In this document: positions 3,012 to 50,890 of the stretch, in pieces | Layout of the letters: each line of letters starts with the position of its first letter | Position numbering within the stretch: the first letter of the stretch is position 1 | Origin: a virus | Taxonomy: Duplodnaviria > Caudoviricetes | Length of the DNA: 52,492 bases | IMG/VR virus record: IMGVR_UViG_3300042922_000373 | Coordinates: 1 to 52,492 of that record | Reading direction: 5' to 3' (one strand) | Made by a program: the position numbers and the translations under genes | The notes under the pieces: generated by a model | What the model saw: the letters and a program-made list of their open reading frames with translations, nothing else | The model's database searches: none | What the model was told of the DNA's origin: nothing

Positions 3012-3196
3012 TCTTCTTCTTTCTTGACGGGGATGTAGTTGAGGAGGTTGCGCAAATCCGATGTGCGCCCAGGCCCCAACTGAATAACAACAGCGCCATG
3101 TTGCATCTCTGCAGCACCGCCCTGCGGATCGATGACCATGCGCAGTCGCTCGCCATCGGTCTGGGCATAGAACCCATTGGAGGAGGTGAAGCTCAC
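2831..3196 (-). CDS. hypothetical protein
   Basis: GTGA start/stop overlap with the upstream gene; its 3' part overlaps the next gene by ~180 nt. Confidence 0.5.
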   Translation of the reverse strand: MSFTSSNGFYAQTDGERLRMVIDPQGGAAEMQHGAVVIQLGPGRTSDLRNLLNYIPVKKEEEWTFVPTAGAKSRKGNVSSRTTSWGTSAKATASNRSSATRSTNMRTVTMLTALVTMIKGM

Positions 3197-3423
3197 TTAA
3201 TCCCTCCGCTAACAGACACCACGATGATCATGAGCGCCATGTACCCCAGTGCCCACCATCCGGCCGCACTCATGTTGCCCGAGGCCCACGCAGTGAGAAC
3301 ACCGCCTACGATGCTCATGATGATGATCACCGACGCTGCCAGAAGCAGGAACTTCATCGGACTCATGACGAGGATGCTGTCCTCGAGCCGGTCATACCAC
3401 GTAGATATCTTCTTCAATACCAC
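3193..3423 (-). CDS. small membrane protein (2 TM)
   Basis: TTGAAAGGAG RBS, GTG at 3423; two hydrophobic stretches. Confidence 0.7.
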   Translation of the reverse strand: MVLKKISTWYDRLEDSILVMSPMKFLLLAASVIIIMSIVGGVLTAWASGNMSAAGWWALGYMALMIIVVSVSGGIK

Positions 3424-3443
3424 GGTTTCTCCTTTCAAGAGAG

Positions 3444-16314: not shown

Positions 16315-16451
16315 TACTCCTCTACTCCGAGCTTCTTGAGCTCTGCTGTGTGGTGTGCGACATCATCCCAGAAGCCCAACTGCTTGGCCATGGCCTTCAG
16401 CTGCTTCAGACGGATGATCTCGAAGGTGTTGTCGGTTGCGGTGTCAGCCAT
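16314..16451 (-). CDS. small hypothetical protein (45 aa, not in the ORF track)
   Basis: GGAG RBS; MADTATDNTFEIIRLKQLKAMAKQLGFW...; fills the gap with TAATG coupling. Confidence 0.6.
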   Translation of the reverse strand: MADTATDNTFEIIRLKQLKAMAKQLGFWDDVAHHTAELKKLGVEE

Positions 16452-16773
16452 TGGACTCCGCGGGCTCCTCGGTGGGCTCCTTCTCAGGCGTGCCCTTGTC
16501 CTCGGCCTCTGCTTCGGCCTCGATGCGCTCGATCTCTTCCTTCAGCTGCTTGCTGCTCGTGAAGATCTCATCGATGGCCTTCTCCGAGTAGTCCGAGGTG
16601 AACTGCCCGACGGCCCCCGAAAGGAAAACACCCGCGGTGCGGATGAAGACCCTCTGGATGAGCTTGGTGTTGTAGGGAGTGGTCGCGACGACGATGTTCC
16701 CCACGATCATGCCAGCACCGATGCCCGAAACGAATCCGGCGACGGCCTTGGTGATCTCGATCTTCTTACCCAT
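16444..16773 (-). CDS. membrane protein
   Basis: TCTTGAAAGGAG RBS; two hydrophobic Gly-rich segments. Confidence 0.7.
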   Translation of the reverse strand: MGKKIEITKAVAGFVSGIGAGMIVGNIVVATTPYNTKLIQRVFIRTAGVFLSGAVGQFTSDYSEKAIDEIFTSSKQLKEEIERIEAEAEAEDKGTPEKEPTEEPAESNG

Positions 16774-16818
16774 TGCATTCTCCTTTCAAGAGAAATATGA
16801 AAGCCTCGGTGAGGCCTT

Positions 16819-18306: not shown

Positions 18307-18335
18307 GATAGTTCCTTTCAAGTGGTGACAGTGGG

Positions 18336-20305: not shown

Positions 20306-20577
20306 GACAGCCTCTCCTTCAAGATGTTGTTCGTGTCGACAAACGTCGAGCCGGATACGTTGAGGGACTTGAGGGTGATCTCTTTCCCCGTGTCTTTCTG
20401 CACCAGCTTATGGTAGAAGAGCACATAACCCTCGTTCTCGACCAAGTGGCGAACCGCCGCCTTCTTGGTGACGAGTTCCGGACCGGAGAGATCCGTGAAG
20501 TCAAGGACGACGTGATCATCGTTGTCCTTGACCAGCGTGCGGAGCTCTTCGATGGCGACCTCGAACTTCGTAGCCAT
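20302..20577 (-). CDS. hypothetical protein
   Basis: ATG coupled (TGATG) to the upstream small ORF; MATKFEVAIEEL... Confidence 0.6.
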   Translation of the reverse strand: MATKFEVAIEELRTLVKDNDDHVVLDFTDLSGPELVTKKAAVRHLVENEGYVLFYHKLVQKDTGKEITLKSLNVSGSTFVDTNNILKERLS

Positions 20578-20708
20578 CAGTACGCCCACGCCATCGTCAT
20601 CTGGTAGCGATAGTTCCGGCGCTCCGAGAAAAGCGGGGAACCCTGCTTGGGCGGGAATCCGAAGTAGTAGGCAGCCTTCTTTGCTGCTCGGATCATCTTG
20701 TTCTTCAT
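20577..20708 (-). CDS. small hypothetical protein (43 aa, not in the ORF track)
   Basis: TCTTGAAAGGAG RBS; MKNKMIRAAKKAAYYFGFPPKQ... Confidence 0.6.
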   Translation of the reverse strand: MKNKMIRAAKKAAYYFGFPPKQGSPLFSERRNYRYQMTMAWAY

Positions 20709-20726
20709 GATGTTCTCCTTTCAAGA

Positions 20727-21331: not shown

Positions 21332-21523
21332 TTATTGGGCACTTGCGTTGGCGGTCCTTCTCGAGTCGTGTCCTTGCGGGAACGGGATGTTGCGGCGCCA
21401 GATAGCGGCTTCGTCGTAGAAGCCAGACACGGGTCGACCGATCACTGCGATGTCCCGGGGCTTGCGTCCACGACGACACGGCTGGTCGCCAACAGCACCA
21501 CAGGTGGGGCATGGCACTTTCAT
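21332..21523 (-). CDS. small zinc-finger protein
   Basis: TTGAAAGGAG RBS; VPCPTCGAVGDQPC...H. Confidence 0.65.
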   Translation of the reverse strand: MKVPCPTCGAVGDQPCRRGRKPRDIAVIGRPVSGFYDEAAIWRRNIPFPQGHDSRRTANASAQ

Positions 21524-21535
21524 GAGTCTCCTTTC

Positions 21536-21563
21536 AAAAATGGAAACCCGTGTTAGGGGTTCC
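21536..21563 (-). terminator. intrinsic terminator with CTAACAC loop
   Basis: GGAACCC-CTAACAC-GGGTTTCCATTTTT. Confidence 0.7.
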
Positions 21564-23113: not shown

Positions 23114-23413
23114 TTACTTCAGCAGTTTCCCGCCGAACAACGTCACAGCTTTCGACGTGAAGATCGCAGGGCCTTTGATCTCCAGGATGCCCATGGTCAG
23201 GATGCCGGCTACGTTTCCGATCGCGGGGATCCAGGCTTTGATGCCGGTGCGTTCCTTAGCATTGATTGCTTCGATTTCGCACAGCTTCTTGTACTGGTCC
23301 AGGCGAGCGTCGTATTCGGCGTCACTGGGGTCGAGGGCATGGAGAACTTCCAGCAGGTCGTTCTTCACATCTTGGTGTGTCGTGTGCTCGGTGGGCTTAA
23401 CAAGCTTCAGCAT
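23114..23413 (-). CDS. hypothetical protein
   Basis: TCTTGAAAGGAG RBS; hydrophobic C-terminus. Confidence 0.7.
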   Translation of the reverse strand: MLKLVKPTEHTTHQDVKNDLLEVLHALDPSDAEYDARLDQYKKLCEIEAINAKERTGIKAWIPAIGNVAGILTMGILEIKGPAIFTSKAVTLFGGKLLK

Positions 23414-23436
23414 ACGTTCTCCTTTCAAGAGTTATC

Positions 23437-45985: not shown

Positions 45986-46471
45986 TCACCCCCTAGGTGG
46001 CACGTTTGGAATGCGTCGCTGGAAAGCGTCCTCGATGCGGGATCTCCAGTCACGGCGCGTCGGATCGGATCCGAATAGCTGCAACTCGAGATAGCGTCGA
46101 GCAACCCCCAAACCAGCAACAAACACGAGACATGTCGCGACTGCTGCTGTAATTGACGAAAATGCGGTTACTCCGATGATGACGAAGTACATGATGATGC
46201 CGATGAATGCTGCTACATCGGCGGCGGGTTCGATGATCCAGATGGTGGTGATGCGACCGATAAGCCCCATCAGTCCCCCAACCAAGAGGAACGTAGCCCA
46301 CCAACCTATCATCCACTCGAATCCATTGAGCTCTTTCGTCACCGTGTCGGGCGTGAAGAACAGGGCAAAGATTCCGCCGACAAACACTACCAGATAGCAG
46401 ATGATGTCGATGAGGCGGATCAGGATTTCGATTACTCGGCGCTTGCGGTCTCCTACAGGATGTCTGTCCAT
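45986..46471 (-). CDS. 4-TM membrane protein (holin-like)
   Basis: four hydrophobic helices; first gene after endolysin. Confidence 0.65.
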   Translation of the reverse strand: MDRHPVGDRKRRVIEILIRLIDIICYLVVFVGGIFALFFTPDTVTKELNGFEWMIGWWATFLLVGGLMGLIGRITTIWIIEPAADVAAFIGIIMYFVIIGVTAFSSITAAVATCLVFVAGLGVARRYLELQLFGSDPTRRDWRSRIEDAFQRRIPNVPPRG

Positions 46472-46487
46472 TAGTTTATCTCCCGTT

Positions 46488-46624
46488 GACCCACGGGGTT
46501 CCCAGCGGGGCCCTCAGTTCTCTTCGCTCGACTCGCTGGGGACGAGGAGCTATCTTGAAAGGAGCAGGGGCGATGAATCCCTGAATTATGAGAACTGAGG
46601 ACCCGGCAGGGAACCCCGTGGATC
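46488..46624 (-). ncRNA. long hairpin RNA with an anti-RBS loop
   Basis: ~31-bp interrupted stem with G-U wobbles on the minus strand; loop contains CTCCTTTCAAGA. Confidence 0.55.
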
Positions 46625-46640
46625 GTCGTGGAACTCTGGG

Positions 46641-47630
46641 TTAGAGTGCCTTGTAGTTGGCAGCTTCGGCGCGAGCGGCTGCGGCCTTCATGTTGGGGCC
46701 CCAGTTGTCGTCGTTGTCGGCGTAGCCCCACTTGGAACGAAGCCAGGCAGCGAGCGACCCGCCGTAGTTCTGGTTGAGGAAGGCCTGAAGACCCGCCGCA
46801 GAACCGGCACCCCACCGGTTGTCCATCCAGGTCGACTGCGACATGCCACGACCGTAGCCGTAGAGGTGCGCGACCTTCTGGAGACCGTTGACGTACTGGA
46901 GATCGGCGAGGTCGTTGACCGTGGCCTTGTGGTAGGACGGGTTCGGCTTCGGCGTGGTCTGTGCGACCCACTCGTTGTAGCGGTTCGTGTGACCAGCCTG
47001 CGTGCCGGCACCCCAGTCGCCATCGATGAGTCCGCTGTACCACCCGCGACCCTGAAGGTACGTCTGGTAGCGCTTGATGGCGGCGATCGTTGCCGGGCCG
47101 AGGAGTCCATCGACGATGAGCTTCTCACCCTGAGCGGCGTTGAGGAAGTTCTGCTCGTTCGCGACGTTCTGGTCGAAGACGAAGTTGTCGTTGTCGTCCC
47201 CGATGTACGCCTCGTGGTTCAGCGTGTTGTGCGTACCGAACGTGTGAGCGTGAGTCGGGAACAGCGTCTGGTGCACGTGAGCACCGACACCCCATTCCTT
47301 GCCCCAGGCAGACGCACCGGTGTATGCGACGAGGTCGCCACGCTTGACCTTCTGGCCAGAGTTGACCAGGATCTTGGAGAGGTGGATCGACGAGGCCATC
47401 TGACCGTCGTTGAGCGCGATCGAGAGTCGGCGACCCTCTGCTCCGGCGGTCGTGTGGTCGACGAGCGTGACCGTACCGTCCTCGACGGCGTAGAGCGAGG
47501 TGCCGTAGGCGACCCCGTAGTCCACAGCCGGCTCAGTCGACGGCGGGTTGCGTCGCTTGTGATCTTCGAAGGAAGAACTGATGAAGCTTGACTTGGTTGG
47601 GCGAAGGTATCCGCCCTTTACGTCTGCCAT
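46641..47630 (-). CDS. endolysin (M23 peptidase + peptidoglycan-binding domains)
   Basis: AVDY..A.GT.LYAVEDG.V...HLS...V..GQKVKRG......GAS...GAHVH; VDGLLGPATI, IDGDWGAGT. Confidence 0.85.
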   Translation of the reverse strand: MADVKGGYLRPTKSSFISSSFEDHKRRNPPSTEPAVDYGVAYGTSLYAVEDGTVTLVDHTTAGAEGRRLSIALNDGQMASSIHLSKILVNSGQKVKRGDLVAYTGASAWGKEWGVGAHVHQTLFPTHAHTFGTHNTLNHEAYIGDDNDNFVFDQNVANEQNFLNAAQGEKLIVDGLLGPATIAAIKRYQTYLQGRGWYSGLIDGDWGAGTQAGHTNRYNEWVAQTTPKPNPSYHKATVNDLADLQYVNGLQKVAHLYGYGRGMSQSTWMDNRWGAGSAAGLQAFLNQNYGGSLAAWLRSKWGYADNDDNWGPNMKAAAARAEAANYKAL

Positions 47631-47690: not shown

Positions 47691-47720
47691 GGAAAATATC
47701 CCCCCGGAGAATTTTTTAGG
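47691..47720. repeat. cos-proximal AAAAATT-NN-CCGGGGGG motif
   Basis: CCTAAAAAATTCTCCGGGGGGATATTTTCC (minus strand). Confidence 0.65.
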
Positions 47721-47729
47721 AGGGCGGCG
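47721..47729 (-). other. probable cos site (9-nt 3' overhang CGCCGCCCT)
   Basis: in a non-coding gap flanked by G/C tracts; matches the CGCCG-type 9-nt overhangs recalled for related actinophage clusters; HNH-terminase module nearby. Confidence 0.7.
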
Positions 47730-48064: not shown

Positions 48065-50890
48065 TTAGCCGTTGACATAGTCGTGGAGGGTACTGGTAGG
48101 TACGCCCAGCATGGCTGCCACATCAGCGTAGTCATAGCCCCTAGCTAGGAGGGACTTGGCTCGCGTTACCTTGGCGGGGGCGATGGCCTTGACCTCGCGT
48201 GGTGTGGCCAGCTGCTTGACCTGATCCAGGTCGGCGTTGTCCAAGATGCTCTTCAGCATGTTGTTAGTAACAGCGCCTGCCTGTACAGCACTCCATTCCT
48301 TATCAGTGATCTGAATGGCCGGCTTCTTGGCTCCCATGCGGGCACGGGCTTCATTCAGGGCGGCGGACTTAATCTTCTTGATGCCGTCCTTATCCAGATC
48401 CGGGTTTGCTTCGATCCTGGCCTTAACCAGGGTACCTGCTAGAATCTGGGCCTGCCGTTCACGAGGGGCGTTTCTCTGCGCGAGATCCAGCTTCTCAGCG
48501 AGACTCTTAACTTCAGGCGCATAGGCCTTGGCTGCAGAGGGGTTCCTCTTGATGGAGGGGGTCTCAATTGTCGACTTGCGAGCAGAGTCCCCTAGTGCCT
48601 TGAGCTTGTTGGCGTGATCTGCATAGACGTGCTCCATGAGAGTACCGCCATCACGAGACAGCAGTTCACGGGCGTCATTGGCTTCGAACATCTTGGTGGA
48701 CTTACCCTGTGACCAAGGCTTGTCTACAACTTCGCCATTCTTCTTGGTGATCTGCTCACCAGTGTACTCCCAGACGCGCTTCCCTGTAGCAGGGTCAATA
48801 CGCATCTTGCGGTCTGCAGGACGGGCCTCAGACTTAGCACGAGAAATGAGAGTTGCGGCACCACGAGTAGCGCCACCCTGATAGGTCTTCTTGAGCTCCG
48901 CAATACCGTTCTGTTTCGCAGACGTACGGAAATCAAGCGAATGCTTTTCAGCATCGATGACAACCATGGAATGACGCACTGCACGAGCGAGCTCCGAATT
49001 CGGCGCACCCTGAATGGTCATGTCTGTGATCAGATTGGAGATGTCACCCATCTTCAGCTGCTTAGCCTGCTTGTTAGGCGACTTGGGCTTGCCGGTTTTG
49101 GGGTCGATCGGGAAAACGGGCTTTCCGAGTTTGGCGTCCCACGTTCCACCGTCGATGGTCTTCATTCCGTCAAAAGGCGGATGTGCCCTCTGAGGATCGA
49201 ATCCCTTGAGCCCTTGCAGAGGAGGTGCAGACTTCACACGACCCTTGCCAGATTCAGGATTCGGAATGACCAGAACCGTGTCACCATCGAAGTCGGCACC
49301 TGAAAGGCGACCGGCAACATTGGCGTTGATTCCAACAGCGTCCTTTGCCTGTTTGATGAGGCGGTTCGCTTCACGGTTACGGTTGTTCACAACGAGTTCG
49401 GGAATCTCGAACGTACCACCATGCGGATGACGAATCAGAACGACTCGCTCACCGTTGTTGTAGTTCGGGGCGTAGATCTCGTTGTCCTTCAGACTGTTAA
49501 TCGGAAGGATGACATGGTTTGCAGTTCTCGGCAGACCAGCGGCCTTCAAGTGGTTTGCAGCGGAATCGATGCCATCAGCGTACGACTCCAGGAGCTTCTT
49601 CTTGATAACCGGGTTTGTCAGGGAGTTGATCTCGTCGAGTTCGGCCTTTTTGCGATCGTACGCAAGCGACAGCTGCTCGCGGGCCAGATCGGGCGACTGC
49701 TTTGACAGGAACTGAGACGAAAGCGACTTGGACCACTTGGACCAGCCACCTTCTTCACCAGAATAGGAGATGTCGTTTCCGTCATCATCCTTCTTCACAG
49801 ATCCGACGATGTTAAGCGGCGACTGATGCTGCTTTCCGTCTTTTCCGGGATAGTTGATCTGGCGAACGATCGATCCGAACGGAAGCTCGGTGTCTTCACC
49901 GGTATTCGCGTCCTTCTTGATCGGCTTCATAGCCTTGAGCTTGTCGCCCGTGTTCGTCTTGTTCGTGTTGAAGATCATGTCATAGCCGTCCGGCACATCG
50001 TCCGAATACATGGCCATGCCCTTGAGGTAGTGATCGTTTCCGACCTTGATACGCACCTGGGCGTACCGTGAGCTACCGAGGGACAGATCGTCGACTCCAC
50101 GACGAAGCTCGATGACACCGTCCTTCTGATCTCCGCCATCTTCCGCATAACGGACAGCCACTCGAGAGGGCTTTACCGCAACGGGAGGCTTGACGTCGAG
50201 ATAGGTACGGCCACCGTCTTCGCTGTAGGTCGCGATCGACTTGATCTTCTCAGGGTGGTTGATGACATCGGGGAACCGCGTTCCAGGAGGGGCGAGCACC
50301 TTGGTGGTGGTGTTCTTTCCCGTTCCCAGCTGGTTGACAGGCACATAGAAGACTTCGTAGCCCTCGTCCTTGAGCATGGCAACCGACACAGCGAGCTTTT
50401 CAGGGCTCACACCGAGGTGGTTACCCGTTCCCTTACCGATGTCGAGGAATCCGCCGGACTTCTCCATGTTGTCCTTCAGAGTTCCCGCGGTTGCCAACAG
50501 AATGGCTTCCTTGGTGTCCTCGGAGGGCTTCAGGAGTGCACGGATGGACGACTCGTTGCGACCCATGATCTCACCGATGGCGACGTTCGAGTTTCCGGCG
50601 TCCTTGAGTCGGACAGCGCGGGCTCGGTCTTCAGCATCGATGCGGGCCTTGGCGATCGTCTTTGCATTGCGGAGATCCGTAGTCGTGAACTTGACCTCGT
50701 CGGTCGAGAAAGCGCGTGCGATCTCAACAGGCGAGAAGCCCTTGTCTTCGAGGTCCTTGATGTGGGCGAGCATGTCCTTACCGCGCTGGTAGGGAGTCTC
50801 ACCCGAACCCCAAGGATAGCGTCCCGACTTGCGGAGGACGCCATAGTGAGCGAGAAACTCATCGTGGTCCACATCACTGTCGAAAATCAC
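48065..50890 (-). CDS. single-chain two-barrel (double-psi beta-barrel) RNA polymerase, YonO/QDE-1-like, with N- and C-terminal HTH
   Basis: QVRI...YLKGM; VLIRHPH; LSGADFDGD catalytic motif; MGDISN; SMVVIDAEKH; HTHs SNVAIGEIMGRNESSIRALL and YADVAAMLGVPTSTL. Confidence 0.8.
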   Translation of the reverse strand: MIFDSDVDHDEFLAHYGVLRKSGRYPWGSGETPYQRGKDMLAHIKDLEDKGFSPVEIARAFSTDEVKFTTTDLRNAKTIAKARIDAEDRARAVRLKDAGNSNVAIGEIMGRNESSIRALLKPSEDTKEAILLATAGTLKDNMEKSGGFLDIGKGTGNHLGVSPEKLAVSVAMLKDEGYEVFYVPVNQLGTGKNTTTKVLAPPGTRFPDVINHPEKIKSIATYSEDGGRTYLDVKPPVAVKPSRVAVRYAEDGGDQKDGVIELRRGVDDLSLGSSRYAQVRIKVGNDHYLKGMAMYSDDVPDGYDMIFNTNKTNTGDKLKAMKPIKKDANTGEDTELPFGSIVRQINYPGKDGKQHQSPLNIVGSVKKDDDGNDISYSGEEGGWSKWSKSLSSQFLSKQSPDLAREQLSLAYDRKKAELDEINSLTNPVIKKKLLESYADGIDSAANHLKAAGLPRTANHVILPINSLKDNEIYAPNYNNGERVVLIRHPHGGTFEIPELVVNNRNREANRLIKQAKDAVGINANVAGRLSGADFDGDTVLVIPNPESGKGRVKSAPPLQGLKGFDPQRAHPPFDGMKTIDGGTWDAKLGKPVFPIDPKTGKPKSPNKQAKQLKMGDISNLITDMTIQGAPNSELARAVRHSMVVIDAEKHSLDFRTSAKQNGIAELKKTYQGGATRGAATLISRAKSEARPADRKMRIDPATGKRVWEYTGEQITKKNGEVVDKPWSQGKSTKMFEANDARELLSRDGGTLMEHVYADHANKLKALGDSARKSTIETPSIKRNPSAAKAYAPEVKSLAEKLDLAQRNAPRERQAQILAGTLVKARIEANPDLDKDGIKKIKSAALNEARARMGAKKPAIQITDKEWSAVQAGAVTNNMLKSILDNADLDQVKQLATPREVKAIAPAKVTRAKSLLARGYDYADVAAMLGVPTSTLHDYVNG

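What the first reader, a model, noticed from the sequence alone, without database searches (positions are those of the whole stretch)
46488..46624. Late-region hairpin RNA whose loop is complementary to the extended RBS of four genes
A 137-nt element between the endolysin and the next gene folds into a ~31-bp stem, with two G-U pairs that favour the minus strand. Its loop contains CTCCTTTCAAGA (46553-46564). This is the exact 12-nt complement of the leader TCTTGAAAGGAG at 3429-3440, 16780-16791, 20715-20726 and 23419-23430, with partial matches near 18313, 21528 and 24910. Inference: a trans-acting anti-Shine-Dalgarno RNA that silences early mRNAs late in infection, or an RNase III-processed regulator of lysis gene expression.
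Basis: partly seen in the sequence, partly recalled or inferred. Interest (0 to 1): 0.75.

Follow-up and report, generated by a model that had tools for sequence, protein, structure and literature searches.

The report
Conserved phage hairpin RNA with anti-leader loop
A conserved, structured RNA near the left end of a group of soil actinobacteria phages displays the exact complement of a ribosome-binding leader shared by several of the phage's own non-structural genes, so it probably helps switch those genes off, which would explain a class of phage start-codon motifs whose role has been open since 2011.

Summary
Window 46488-46624 is the longest inverted repeat in the window. It folds best on the minus (gene-sense) strand and exposes CUCCUUUCAAGA. 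That is the complement of the leader UCUUGAAAGGAG found before four genes.

It belongs to a conserved RNA family absent from Rfam. I aligned 16 members, from Microbacterium phages DizzyRudy and Camille, Arthrobacter phage Qui and metagenomic viruses. In 29 of 32 stem pairs the pairing is kept through compensatory changes. G-U pairs favour the sense strand, 29 cells against 5. The 11-nt block CUCCUUUCAAG never varies.

Genomes with the element carry 2-12 exact sense-strand leader copies. Seventeen near-complete relatives without it carry none. Of 51 leader sites, 50 lie 2-11 nt before a start codon, so they are start-associated sequences.

An unrelated group, Cluster K1 mycobacteriophages, has the same design. 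Their one reverse-oriented start-associated sequence is the loop of a conserved hairpin. It lies in the gap where a published RNA-seq study places the start of late transcription.

Best reading (about 0.5): a trans-acting anti-leader RNA made with the left-arm (presumed late) transcript. Expression, processing and silencing are not shown. The design is not universal: Cluster EF and several K subclusters lack it. The scan's notes hold no copy on other DNA.

The parts
46481..46632 (-). Whole structured element: a long outer stem (P1 plus P2, about 32 consensus pairs) enclosing a junction with two small hairpins and an unpaired block. The covariance model places it at 46489-46623.
   Evidence: model hit at 117.9 bits, E 1.4e-24. 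In 29 of 32 pairs the pairing is kept through changes on both sides in at least one of 16 sequences.
46553..46564 (-). Anti-leader block CUCCUUUCAAGA, unpaired. The 11 bases CUCCUUUCAAG (46554-46564) are invariant in all 16 aligned family members.
   Evidence: Opening energy is 0.31 kcal/mol here and at most 2.2 kcal/mol in all 16 members.
46565..46583 (-). Small hairpin P3: GGG/CCC stem with a 9-nt loop. The loop holds UCAUC, invariant in the 16 main-family members but not in distant ones.
   Evidence: Its role is unexplained.
46523..46552 (-). Variable hairpin P4. Its length and sequence differ between family members.
23419..23430 (-). Leader copy UCUUGAAAGGAG. It lies 8 nt after a TATAAT site and 5 nt before the ATG of a 99-aa ORF (23413-23114).
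   Evidence: predicted duplex with the block -19.1 kcal/mol.
20715..20726 (-). Leader copy before a 43-aa ORF (20708-20577).
16780..16791 (-). Leader copy before a 109-aa ORF (16773-16444).
3429..3440 (-). Leader copy before a 76-aa membrane-like ORF (3423-3193, GTG start).
21528..21539 (-). One-mismatch leader copy (UUUUGAAAGGAG) before a 63-aa ORF (21523-21332).
   Evidence: -16.5 kcal/mol.
46641..47630 (-). Upstream gene: endolysin with Peptidase_M23 and PG_binding_1 domains. It is the first gene after the cos-proximal motif.
45986..46471 (-). Downstream gene: 161-aa membrane protein (PHROG 35459). Its RBS follows the stem directly.

Best explanation
The element is a conserved non-coding RNA domain carried on the gene-sense transcript of the phage's left arm, which holds the lysis, packaging and structural genes. 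A stem of about 32 bp holds up a junction. The junction presents the unpaired block CUCCUUUCAAG(A), which is complementary to a start-associated leader. That leader, (C)UCUUGAAAGGAG(AA), combines a maximal Shine-Dalgarno sequence with four or five further bases. It heads 4-12 small non-structural genes per genome and often forms the very 5' end of their mRNAs.

My reading is that the block pairs in trans with these leaders over 12-15 bp, about -19 kcal/mol. This would cover the ribosome-binding site and shut off translation of that gene set once left-arm transcription is high. It would probably also expose the mRNAs to decay. The long stem would serve as a stabiliser, an RNase III processing signal that frees the apical domain, or both.

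Shown: the structure, its strand, the invariance and accessibility of the block, the complementarity, and the co-occurrence with the leaders.

Inferred: that the RNA accumulates, when it is made, that it is processed, that pairing happens in vivo, and the direction of the effect.
For: 1. Complementarity beyond chance. There are 6 matches at up to 1 mismatch against 0.28 expected. With only the unpaired 15-nt block as probe, the four exact leaders are the four best duplexes among 13,117 sense-strand windows: -19.1 kcal/mol against a background of -5.5 +/- 2.6.

2. A conserved RNA. There are 16 aligned members from three named phages and 12 viral contigs. In 29 of 32 stem pairs the pairing is kept through changes on both sides in at least one sequence, while CUCCUUUCAAG is invariant at 53% mean column identity. 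More distant members found with the covariance model keep the block.

3. Strand. On the same 32 pairs, 29 cells are G-U on the sense strand and 5 are A-C, which would be G-U on the other strand. The consensus fold gives -61.6 against -54.2 kcal/mol. All 16 distinct model hits in related loci point the same way as the genes.

4. Accessibility. Opening the block costs at most 2.2 kcal/mol in 16 of 16 members.

5. Co-occurrence.
- Every genome tested that has the element has one antisense copy, in the element, plus exact sense copies of the leader. The counts are: window 4, DizzyRudy 3, Camille 5, Qui 12, G001 11 on the gene strand, G002 5, and G003, G016 and G004 2 each.
- Of 19 related records at least 90% complete, the 2 with the 12-mer both have the element. 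The other 17 have no copy on either strand.
- 5 such relatives gave no model hit over the whole record, while the positive control found the element in 5 of 5.

6. The targets are translation signals. Of 51 non-element sites, 50 are followed by a start codon 2-11 nt downstream and an ORF of at least 30 codons. 10 of the 51 sit at most 9 nt behind a -10-like site.

7. An independent analogue.
- Adephagia, Anaya and CrimD each have 14 forward SAS copies and one reverse copy.
- That copy is the 10-nt loop of a hairpin on the sense strand.
- The hairpin region is conserved in 131 mycobacteriophage records, with wobble and compensatory changes in the stem.
- It lies in the gene 92-93 gap, where Adephagia late transcription 'appears to initiate' (PMC11373665, passages read).

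8. Local constraint. A relative about 98% identical has 39 differences in 1801 nt and none between 46425 and 46736.

9. A diverged relative. The hairpin of G012 carries a different extension, and one leader in that genome shares the same 15-mer.
Against: - There is no expression evidence. The one RNA library that holds part of the stretch covers only 47244-47562, inside the endolysin gene.
- There is no covariation between loop and leader within the main family, because the block never varies.
- Where the element does vary (G004: GUCC instead of CUCC), the leaders keep GGAG. Pairing there is simply one base shorter.
- In the window itself the pairing is only 12 bp.
- The invariant UCAUC in the P3 loop has no counterpart in the leaders and is unexplained.
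- SAS-type leaders exist without any antisense copy. Cluster EF has 0 reverse copies at up to 2 mismatches and 0 of the 9-mer core. Pixie (K3) and Unicorn (K6) have none. The ZoeJ (K2) reverse copy is an ordinary leader of a leftward gene. The Kratio (K5) copy lies inside a coding sequence. An anti-leader RNA is therefore not needed for such leaders to exist.
- Relative G007 has a long hairpin at the same place, but I found no leader complementary to its apex.
- A first crude G-U count on single-sequence folds was indecisive, 34 against 44.
Confidence: 0.5

Rival explanations
1. A cis-acting RNA element only. The long stem would be an RNase III processing site, a 5' or 3' stabiliser, or a transcription pause or attenuation signal that separates expression units of the left-arm operon. 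The apical block would be conserved because a host or phage protein or the ribosome binds it. Its match to the leaders would follow from both being built around the Shine-Dalgarno/anti-Shine-Dalgarno pair.
For: The stem has about 32 pairs with a mismatch at a fixed position (column 28/154), as in known RNase III substrates. The position is always between or ahead of left-arm genes. 8 of 16 members have a run of at least 5 T downstream. In L057 the next gene's own RBS carries CTTGAAAGGAG, so pairing in cis is possible there.
Against: The match extends 4-5 bases beyond the Shine-Dalgarno core (UCUU, and often C before and AA after) in both partners. The exact 12-mer is absent from 17 of 19 near-complete relatives, so it is not a generic consequence of strong ribosome-binding sites. 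No T-run abuts the stem: it starts at +7 to +19 in 8 of 16 and is absent in 8 of 16. The simple scan finds no sense-strand terminator for the element. In the other members I read, the downstream RBS is GGAGGTGA or a similar GGAG-type site, complementary to only about 4 bases of the block.
Confidence: 0.17
2. A mimic of the 3' tail of 16S rRNA. The exposed CUCCUUUC would act as a general sponge for Shine-Dalgarno sequences. Alternatively it would be a decoy for a factor that recognises or cuts the anti-Shine-Dalgarno sequence, such as a host abortive-infection ribonuclease. It would not be a specific regulator of the phage's own leaders.
For: The invariant core is an anti-Shine-Dalgarno-like sequence. 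The K-cluster hairpin loop likewise contains CCUCCU. Weak, distant model hits (L107, L125) and L112, which I found by folding the same region, keep CUCCUUUC but change the extension. That such nucleases exist is recalled knowledge and was not tested here.
Against: The extension AAG(AG) is invariant in the main family and matches the leaders exactly. The element and the exact leader co-occur. A generic sponge would not need either feature.
Confidence: 0.12
3. A DNA-level site. TCTTGAAAGGAG would be the operator of a DNA-binding regulator, or the inverted repeat would be a cruciform or packaging signal near cos. The copy in the hairpin would simply be a site in reverse orientation.
For: The element lies about 1.1 kb from the cos-proximal motif and next to the packaging genes. 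10 of 51 leader sites abut promoter-like -10 sites.
Against: 50 of 51 sites keep a fixed distance to a start codon, not to a promoter, and all but one share one orientation. The arms differ completely between phages yet stay complementary, with strand-asymmetric wobble pairs. This fits a single-stranded fold and not a protein site on duplex DNA.
Confidence: 0.08
4. The plus strand (antisense to all genes) is the functional RNA. It would be a small transcript with a perfect translation start: GAAAGGAG, 8-9 nt, then AUG in a hairpin loop. It would act as a mini-ORF or a ribosome decoy.
For: In all 16 main-family members the plus strand has the leader followed by AUGA at Shine-Dalgarno spacing. 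This would explain the invariant UCAUC/GAUGA.
Against: The peptides are not conserved: MNP-stop in the window, 8-22 codons elsewhere, and the window has a 1-nt deletion relative to relatives (my reading). Distant homologs lose the AUG: L100, L104 and L108 have UUAUC and L128 has neither. Wobble pairs favour the other strand 29 to 5. No promoter-like site precedes it on the plus strand.
Confidence: 0.06
5. A miniature inverted-repeat mobile element or other selfish insertion.
For: It has terminal inverted repeats of 35 nt and sits at different places relative to the lysis genes in different phages.
Against: There is one copy per genome in 5 of 5 genomes searched with the model. One pattern scan of 185,579 bacterial and archaeal species genomes found no copy; its single hit is an ordinary gene start. 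The arms diverge by compensatory changes, not as recent copies.
Confidence: 0.01

Closest known systems
Start-associated sequences (SAS) of Cluster K mycobacteriophages and Cluster EF Microbacterium phages (Pope 2011, PMC3203893; Jacobs-Sera 2020, PMC7302621; passages read)
   Same: The leader UCUUGAAAGGAG behaves like a SAS. It is a 12-14-nt motif far better conserved than a ribosome-binding site. It lies 2-11 nt before start codons, has 4-12 copies per genome in one orientation, and is found in the non-structural part.
   Different: The sequence differs from both published consensus motifs. The passages I read on Cluster EL (Camille) describe no such motif. New here is a cognate antisense copy in a conserved hairpin. 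[quoted passage not shown] Papers of 2024 and 2025 still call the role of SAS unknown.
Processed antisense RNAs of phages P1/P7 (c4) and P4 (CI), and P22 sar (recalled from general knowledge; no paper read here)
   Same: These are phage-encoded RNAs whose exposed loops pair with ribosome-binding or leader regions of phage mRNAs. c4 and CI are cut out of a longer operon transcript.
   Different: There is no sequence or structure match: no Rfam family reaches its threshold, the best E-value being 0.38 for an unrelated snoRNA model. Those RNAs control one immunity operon. This one would address a set of 4-12 dispersed genes through a shared leader. Its scaffold is a stem of about 32 bp.
T4 RegB endoribonuclease (recalled)
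   Same: The proposed logic is the same: early phage mRNAs are inactivated at their Shine-Dalgarno sequence when the programme moves on.
   Different: RegB is a protein nuclease that cuts GGAG. Here an RNA would mask an extended Shine-Dalgarno leader.
T7-type RNase III processing hairpins and 5' stabiliser stem-loops (recalled)
   Same: It is a long, nearly perfect intercistronic stem with a fixed internal mismatch inside a polycistronic phage transcript.
   Different: Those sites are not known to carry a conserved apical sequence complementary to other phage mRNAs. Cleavage here is untested.

Membership tests
Start-associated sequence (the leader copies) | A conserved motif of 12 nt or more that overlaps the ribosome-binding site, a few bases before the start codon. 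| tested here: met
   50 of 51 sites in six genomes have a start codon 2-11 nt downstream, mostly 5-6 nt, and an ORF of at least 30 codons.
Start-associated sequence (the leader copies) | Many copies per genome, essentially one orientation, in the non-structural part. | tested here: met
   There are 4-12 exact sense-strand copies clustered away from the structural genes. Each genome has one reverse copy, in the element, and G001 has one further reverse copy.
Start-associated sequence (the leader copies) | Sequence matches the published consensus (GGGATAGGAGCCC or GGGAAAGGACCCC). | tested here: not met
   The motif is different, so this is a new SAS type and not a member of either published set.
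Any described RNA family (Rfam 15) | Covariance-model score at or above the family's gathering threshold. | tested here: not met
   6 matches at E up to 10, all 9.5-16.7 bits against thresholds of 40-83. All are eukaryotic families.
Intrinsic (Rho-independent) terminator | A G+C-rich stem followed within 0-2 nt by a U tract. | tested here: not met
   0 of 16 members. T-runs, where present (8 of 16), begin 7-19 nt after the stem. The window has none.
Loop-mediated antisense RNA against a ribosome-binding site (c4/sar kind) | An exposed single-stranded block complementary to the target's ribosome-binding region. | tested here: met
   The block is unpaired and costs at most 2.2 kcal/mol to open. 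The duplexes are 12 bp at -19.1 kcal/mol and are the four best in the window.
Loop-mediated antisense RNA against a ribosome-binding site (c4/sar kind) | The RNA accumulates and represses the target in trans. | not testable with these tools
   The only RNA library found does not cover the element.
RNase III processing site | A double-stranded stem of about 20 bp or more. | tested here: met
   32 consensus pairs: 19 pairs, a mismatch, then 13 pairs.
RNase III processing site | Cleavage by RNase III. | not testable with these tools
   This needs 5'/3' end mapping in wild-type and rnc-deficient hosts.
Miniature inverted-repeat mobile element | Several similar copies per genome or host, with target-site duplication. 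| tested here: not met
   One strong model hit per genome in 5 of 5. One pattern scan of the bacterial genome collection found no copy.
Plus-strand mini-gene | A conserved start codon and reading frame. | tested here: not met
   Frames and lengths differ between members. The AUG is lost in L100, L104, L108 and L128.

The most novel reading that the evidence does not exclude
Start-associated sequences are the receiving end of an RNA-based timing switch. In at least two unrelated actinophage lineages (the Cluster EL-like group and Cluster K1), the leader of the late or left-arm transcript carries a hairpin whose loop is the antisense of the SAS. One late-made RNA would then mask the ribosome-binding sites of a whole set of early or middle genes. 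This would be a phage-encoded, regulon-wide anti-Shine-Dalgarno RNA. A bolder variant is that the apical domain also imitates the ribosome's own mRNA-reading parts, with an anti-Shine-Dalgarno stretch next to a CAU-bearing stem-loop with a GGG/CCC stem. It would then clamp the Shine-Dalgarno sequence and the start codon together.
Probability: 0.35. Interest if true: 0.85.

Novelty: new variant of a known kind. Interest (0 to 1): 0.72.

Why it matters
Start-associated sequences were described in 2011. Papers of 2024 and 2025 still call their role unknown. In two lineages they now prove to have a conserved, structured antisense partner. That gives a concrete hypothesis that can be tested by mutation: an RNA made with the late transcript masks the leaders of a set of non-structural genes.

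Phage antisense RNAs known so far act on one operon. A single RNA addressing 4-12 dispersed genes through a shared leader would be a new way of ordering a lytic programme.

The element is also a new, well-supported RNA family for Rfam. It is a compact part with a matched partner, a 12-15-nt leader and its masking loop. That pair could be used for gene control in Actinobacteria.

Adephagia and its relatives are used as genetic and therapeutic tools, so understanding their late switch has practical value.

Tried and rejected
1. G-U counts on single-sequence minimum-energy folds, which included extra outer pairs, gave 34 (plus strand) against 44 (minus strand). This was indecisive. I replaced it with counts on the aligned consensus stem.

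2. A duplex scan with a 27-nt probe that included stem bases gave meaningless G+C-rich hits. I repeated it with the 15 unpaired bases.

3. RNAalifold on the reverse-complement alignment chose partly different pairs: 39 pairs, 27 G-U and 20 A-C. Its raw counts are therefore not comparable. I report the same 32 pairs read on both strands.

4. Sequencing runs. The RNA run X5 holds two 151-nt contigs inside the endolysin gene only, so nothing can be said about transcription of the element. Contigs cannot give strand or ends.

5. A second viral pattern without the first 8 bases returned 80 listed loci (86 stretches reported). All but the known members and one new one (L057) are ordinary gene starts.

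6. A host target with the full 20-nt apical sequence. The scan of 185,579 species genomes gave one hit, an ordinary gene start in a MAG. That pattern required the main-family form.

7. Generalisation to other SAS-bearing phages failed for Cluster EF, Pixie and Unicorn, ZoeJ and Kratio.

8. A link to the phage's own RNA polymerase was rejected. The 941-aa polymerase homolog is present in relatives both with and without the element.

9. Terminator and sigma-70 promoter scans around the element gave nothing that explains it.

10. Literature.
- The 12-mer occurs in 24 papers. None of the 20 listed is about a phage, judged from titles and abstracts only.
- Searches for SAS, for actinobacteriophage antisense RNA and for Cluster AM/AU motifs found no description of the hairpin or of an anti-SAS RNA.
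- A preprint on Cluster AU phages reports a 32-bp intergenic repeat read as a recombination boundary. It may overlap the promoter-leader unit; I did not check this.
These are S10 of PMC7302621, and Fig. S3 and the tables of PMC3203893.

11. I did not use structure prediction, complex prediction, the protein atlas or the large protein searches. No protein question needed them.
Full report
WHAT IS THERE

All long ORFs of the window lie on the minus strand, so phage sense is the minus strand. Around 47,700-47,725 the window carries the same end-proximal motif as the first 30 bases of Microbacterium phage DizzyRudy. The record is therefore circularly permuted. The M23/PG-binding endolysin (46641-47630) is the first gene of the left arm.

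The element sits between the endolysin and a 161-aa membrane protein. Behind these come a 107-aa small-terminase-like gene, an HNH endonuclease, a connector protein and the large terminase.

The arms 46488-46522 and 46590-46624 are 35 nt long and 89% complementary. They form the longest inverted repeat of the window. The minus-strand RNA folds at -92 kcal/mol (z -9.6) and the plus strand at -85.1 kcal/mol (z -5.2).

The plus strand at 46553-46564 reads TCTTGAAAGGAG. The sense RNA therefore shows CUCCUUUCAAGA, which is unpaired in the fold. Four exact copies and one copy with a single mismatch of TCTTGAAAGGAG lie on the sense strand. That makes 6 matches against 0.28 expected. Each lies a few bases before the start of a 43-109-aa ORF.

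IT IS A CONSERVED RNA FAMILY

A BLAST search with the 169-nt intergenic stretch found its core in DizzyRudy, Damascus and Camille and, more weakly (E 0.5), in Arthrobacter phages Qui and Paella. In all of them it lies in unannotated gaps near the left genome end. A pattern scan of viral contigs added 11 loci, and a second scan added one more.

Sixteen sequences align with 53% mean column identity. RNAalifold predicts a 32-pair stem. In 29 of those pairs the pairing is kept through changes on both sides in at least one sequence.

The apex is the opposite of the stem. CUCCUUUCAAG is invariant. So is UCAUC in the loop of a small GGG/CCC hairpin just 5' of it. A second apical hairpin varies freely.

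Rfam 15 has nothing like it. A covariance model built from the alignment found further, more distant members among 80 viral loci chosen through the neighbouring small-terminase-like gene. There were 16 distinct places, all in gene orientation.

These distant members keep CUCCUUUCAAG, with some variation:
- L135/L137/L138 have GUCCUUUCAAGAG.
- The weak hits L107 and L125 keep only CUCCUUUC.
- Several lose the UCAUC loop.

One pattern scan of 185,579 bacterial and archaeal species genomes found no copy. Its single hit is an ordinary gene start. Each phage genome searched with the model has one copy.

WHICH STRAND

On the 32 consensus pairs there are 432 Watson-Crick cells. A further 29 are G-U cells on the sense strand, spread over 15 of the 16 sequences. 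Only 5 are A-C cells, which would be G-U on the other strand. Twelve cells are other mismatches.

Read on the sense strand, 17 of 478 cells are non-canonical. Read on the other strand, 41 are. The consensus folding energy is -61.6 against -54.2 kcal/mol.

A first crude count on single folds was indecisive. Related sequences are not independent, so these counts are not a formal test, but they point one way. Orientation relative to the genes is constant. I take the sense-strand RNA as the functional molecule.

THE LEADERS

In five relatives the pattern repeats. There is one antisense copy of the 12-mer, in the element, and many sense copies in the non-structural part. I read 51 such sites, at up to 1 mismatch, in six genomes. 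Of these, 50 are followed by a start codon at 2-11 nt, mostly 5-6, and an ORF of at least 30 codons.

The flanks extend the complementarity to the element to 13-15 nt in most genomes, in the form C-UCUUGAAAGGAG-A(A). In the window it is 12 nt.

Twenty-one of the 51 sites have a -10-like TAYDDTGM within 45 nt upstream. For 10 of them it ends at most 9 nt before the motif. The motif would then be the very 5' end of the mRNA.

These are start-associated sequences in the sense of Pope 2011 and Jacobs-Sera 2020, but of a new sequence type. The passages I read on Cluster EL, to which Camille belongs, do not mention them.

CO-OCCURRENCE

I searched 50 related viral records for the exact 12-mer. Nine hold it:
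- G002, G003, G016 and G004 have leader copies. All four have the element, although G004's own copy carries a one-base variant of the 12-mer.
- G005, G006, G026 and G031 are fragments (25-42% complete) in which the only copy lies in the element itself.
- G018 is a 30% fragment with a single copy that I did not examine.

Of the 19 records at least 90% complete, 2 hold the 12-mer. Both have the element and two leaders. The other 17 have no copy on either strand.

Five element-less relatives gave no model hit over the whole record. The same search found the element in 5 of 5 positive controls.

The phage's 941-aa polymerase homolog is present in both groups. Leader and element therefore go together independently of that enzyme.

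Some element-less relatives carry other long hairpins at the same place. In one, G012, the apex reads differently, and one leader in that genome shares the same 15-mer. In another, G007, I found no matching leader.

ENERGETICS

The block costs at most 2.2 kcal/mol to open in all 16 members. With the 15 unpaired bases as probe, the four exact leaders are the four best duplexes on the window's sense strand. They score -19.1 kcal/mol against a background of -5.5 +/- 2.6.

AN INDEPENDENT PARALLEL

[quoted passage not shown] I confirmed 14 forward copies and 1 reverse copy in each of Adephagia, Anaya and CrimD.

The reverse copy lies in the 432-bp gap between genes 92 and 93. On the sense strand it is the 10-nt loop of a hairpin of about 18 bp.

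The region is conserved in 131 mycobacteriophage records. In an alignment of eight, the loop is unchanged in seven. The stem shows G-C to A-U changes and sense-strand wobble pairs.

[quoted passage not shown] Two unrelated lineages with different SAS sequences thus place an antisense copy of their SAS in a hairpin loop, in the gap where late transcription starts (Adephagia) or near the left genome end ahead of the packaging genes (this family).

WHAT SPEAKS AGAINST IT

- Nothing here shows that the RNA exists or acts. The RNA library found covers only part of the endolysin gene.
- Within the main family the block never varies, so there is no true loop-leader covariation. Where the element differs by one base (G004), the leaders do not follow.
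- SAS-type leaders exist without an antisense partner in Cluster EF and in K2, K3, K5 and K6 representatives.
- The invariant UCAUC loop is unexplained.
- The plus strand looks like a perfect translation start, but distant members lose its AUG and the peptides are not conserved.

HOW IT MOST LIKELY WORKS

The left-arm transcript carries the element. Its long stem protects it or lets RNase III cut it out. The exposed block pairs with the extended Shine-Dalgarno leader of the small non-structural genes and blocks 30S binding. The effect rises with left-arm transcription.

I put this at about 0.5. The rivals are:
- a purely cis-acting processing or stability element (0.17);
- a general anti-Shine-Dalgarno mimic or decoy (0.12);
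- a DNA-level site (0.08);
- a plus-strand transcript (0.06);
- a mobile element (0.01).

NOVELTY

Antisense RNAs that mask ribosome-binding sites are known in phages; P22 sar and P1 c4 are recalled examples. Three things are new here. The RNA family itself is new. It is linked to start-associated sequences. One loop would address a whole set of genes.

The paper searches I ran found no description of the hairpin or of an anti-SAS RNA.

One small supporting point: a relative about 98% identical shows 39 differences over 1801 nt and none between 46425 and 46736. About 3.7 would be expected in the 169-nt gap alone.

Noticed in passing
window 48065-50890 (-): The 941-aa protein matches PHROG 4291, annotated 'RNA-dependent RNA polymerase', over its whole length (E 0, 1206 bits). 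It contains a DFDGD motif. It looks like a single-chain two-barrel RNA polymerase of the YonO/QDE-1 kind; that name is recalled and was not tested. Homologs at 48-57% identity occur in all 10 relatives searched, with or without the hairpin element.
   Followed up: partly
Mycobacterium phage Adephagia JF704105 58,660-58,716 (locus L183 661-717); also Anaya, CrimD and 128 more records: The one reverse-oriented start-associated sequence of Cluster K1 phages is the loop of a conserved hairpin. It lies in the gene 92-93 gap, where late transcription is reported to start. A second conserved hairpin lies about 10 nt upstream.
   Followed up: partly
window 47700-47725: An end-proximal motif (a run of C/G followed by ATATTTT) matches the first 30 bases of DizzyRudy and the ends of Qui, L010 and L012. 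The record is therefore circularly permuted, with cos near 47.72 kb.
   Followed up: partly
window, minus strand, five copies (positions not listed in my output): A second over-represented word, GGTATAATGACCACC (5 copies, one orientation), looks like a promoter class distinct from the leader-associated one.
   Followed up: no
L003 (Qui) 1290-1420; G004:C1:6523-6622: In Qui and in G004 a second long hairpin lies next to the element. It is different in Qui and weakly similar in G004. In Qui both hairpins are followed by the same 20-nt sequence that ends in a T-run.
   Followed up: no
L057, 10-25 nt downstream of the element: In this contig the ribosome-binding site of the next gene (small-terminase-like) itself reads CTTGAAAGGAG. 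The element could therefore also pair in cis there.
   Followed up: no
relatives' leader sites (L090-L097) and the element's inner stem: Many leader-associated promoters read TTATAGTGAGAACC directly before the leader. The inner stem of the element in many members contains GAGAAC(U)G. I could not tell whether this is coincidence or a shared recognition feature.
   Followed up: no
window 46565-46583 (-) and homologs: The small hairpin next to the block has an invariant GGG/CCC stem and a loop with U-CAU. This is reminiscent of an initiator-tRNA anticodon arm; the resemblance is recalled and was not tested. It is lost in distant family members.
   Followed up: no
window 3193-3423, 16444-16773, 20577-20708, 21332-21523, 23114-23413 (-): The leader-bearing genes encode small proteins of 43-109 aa. 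By my reading of the sequences, at least the 76-aa, 109-aa and 99-aa products have hydrophobic, membrane-like stretches. No family search was run on them.
   Followed up: no
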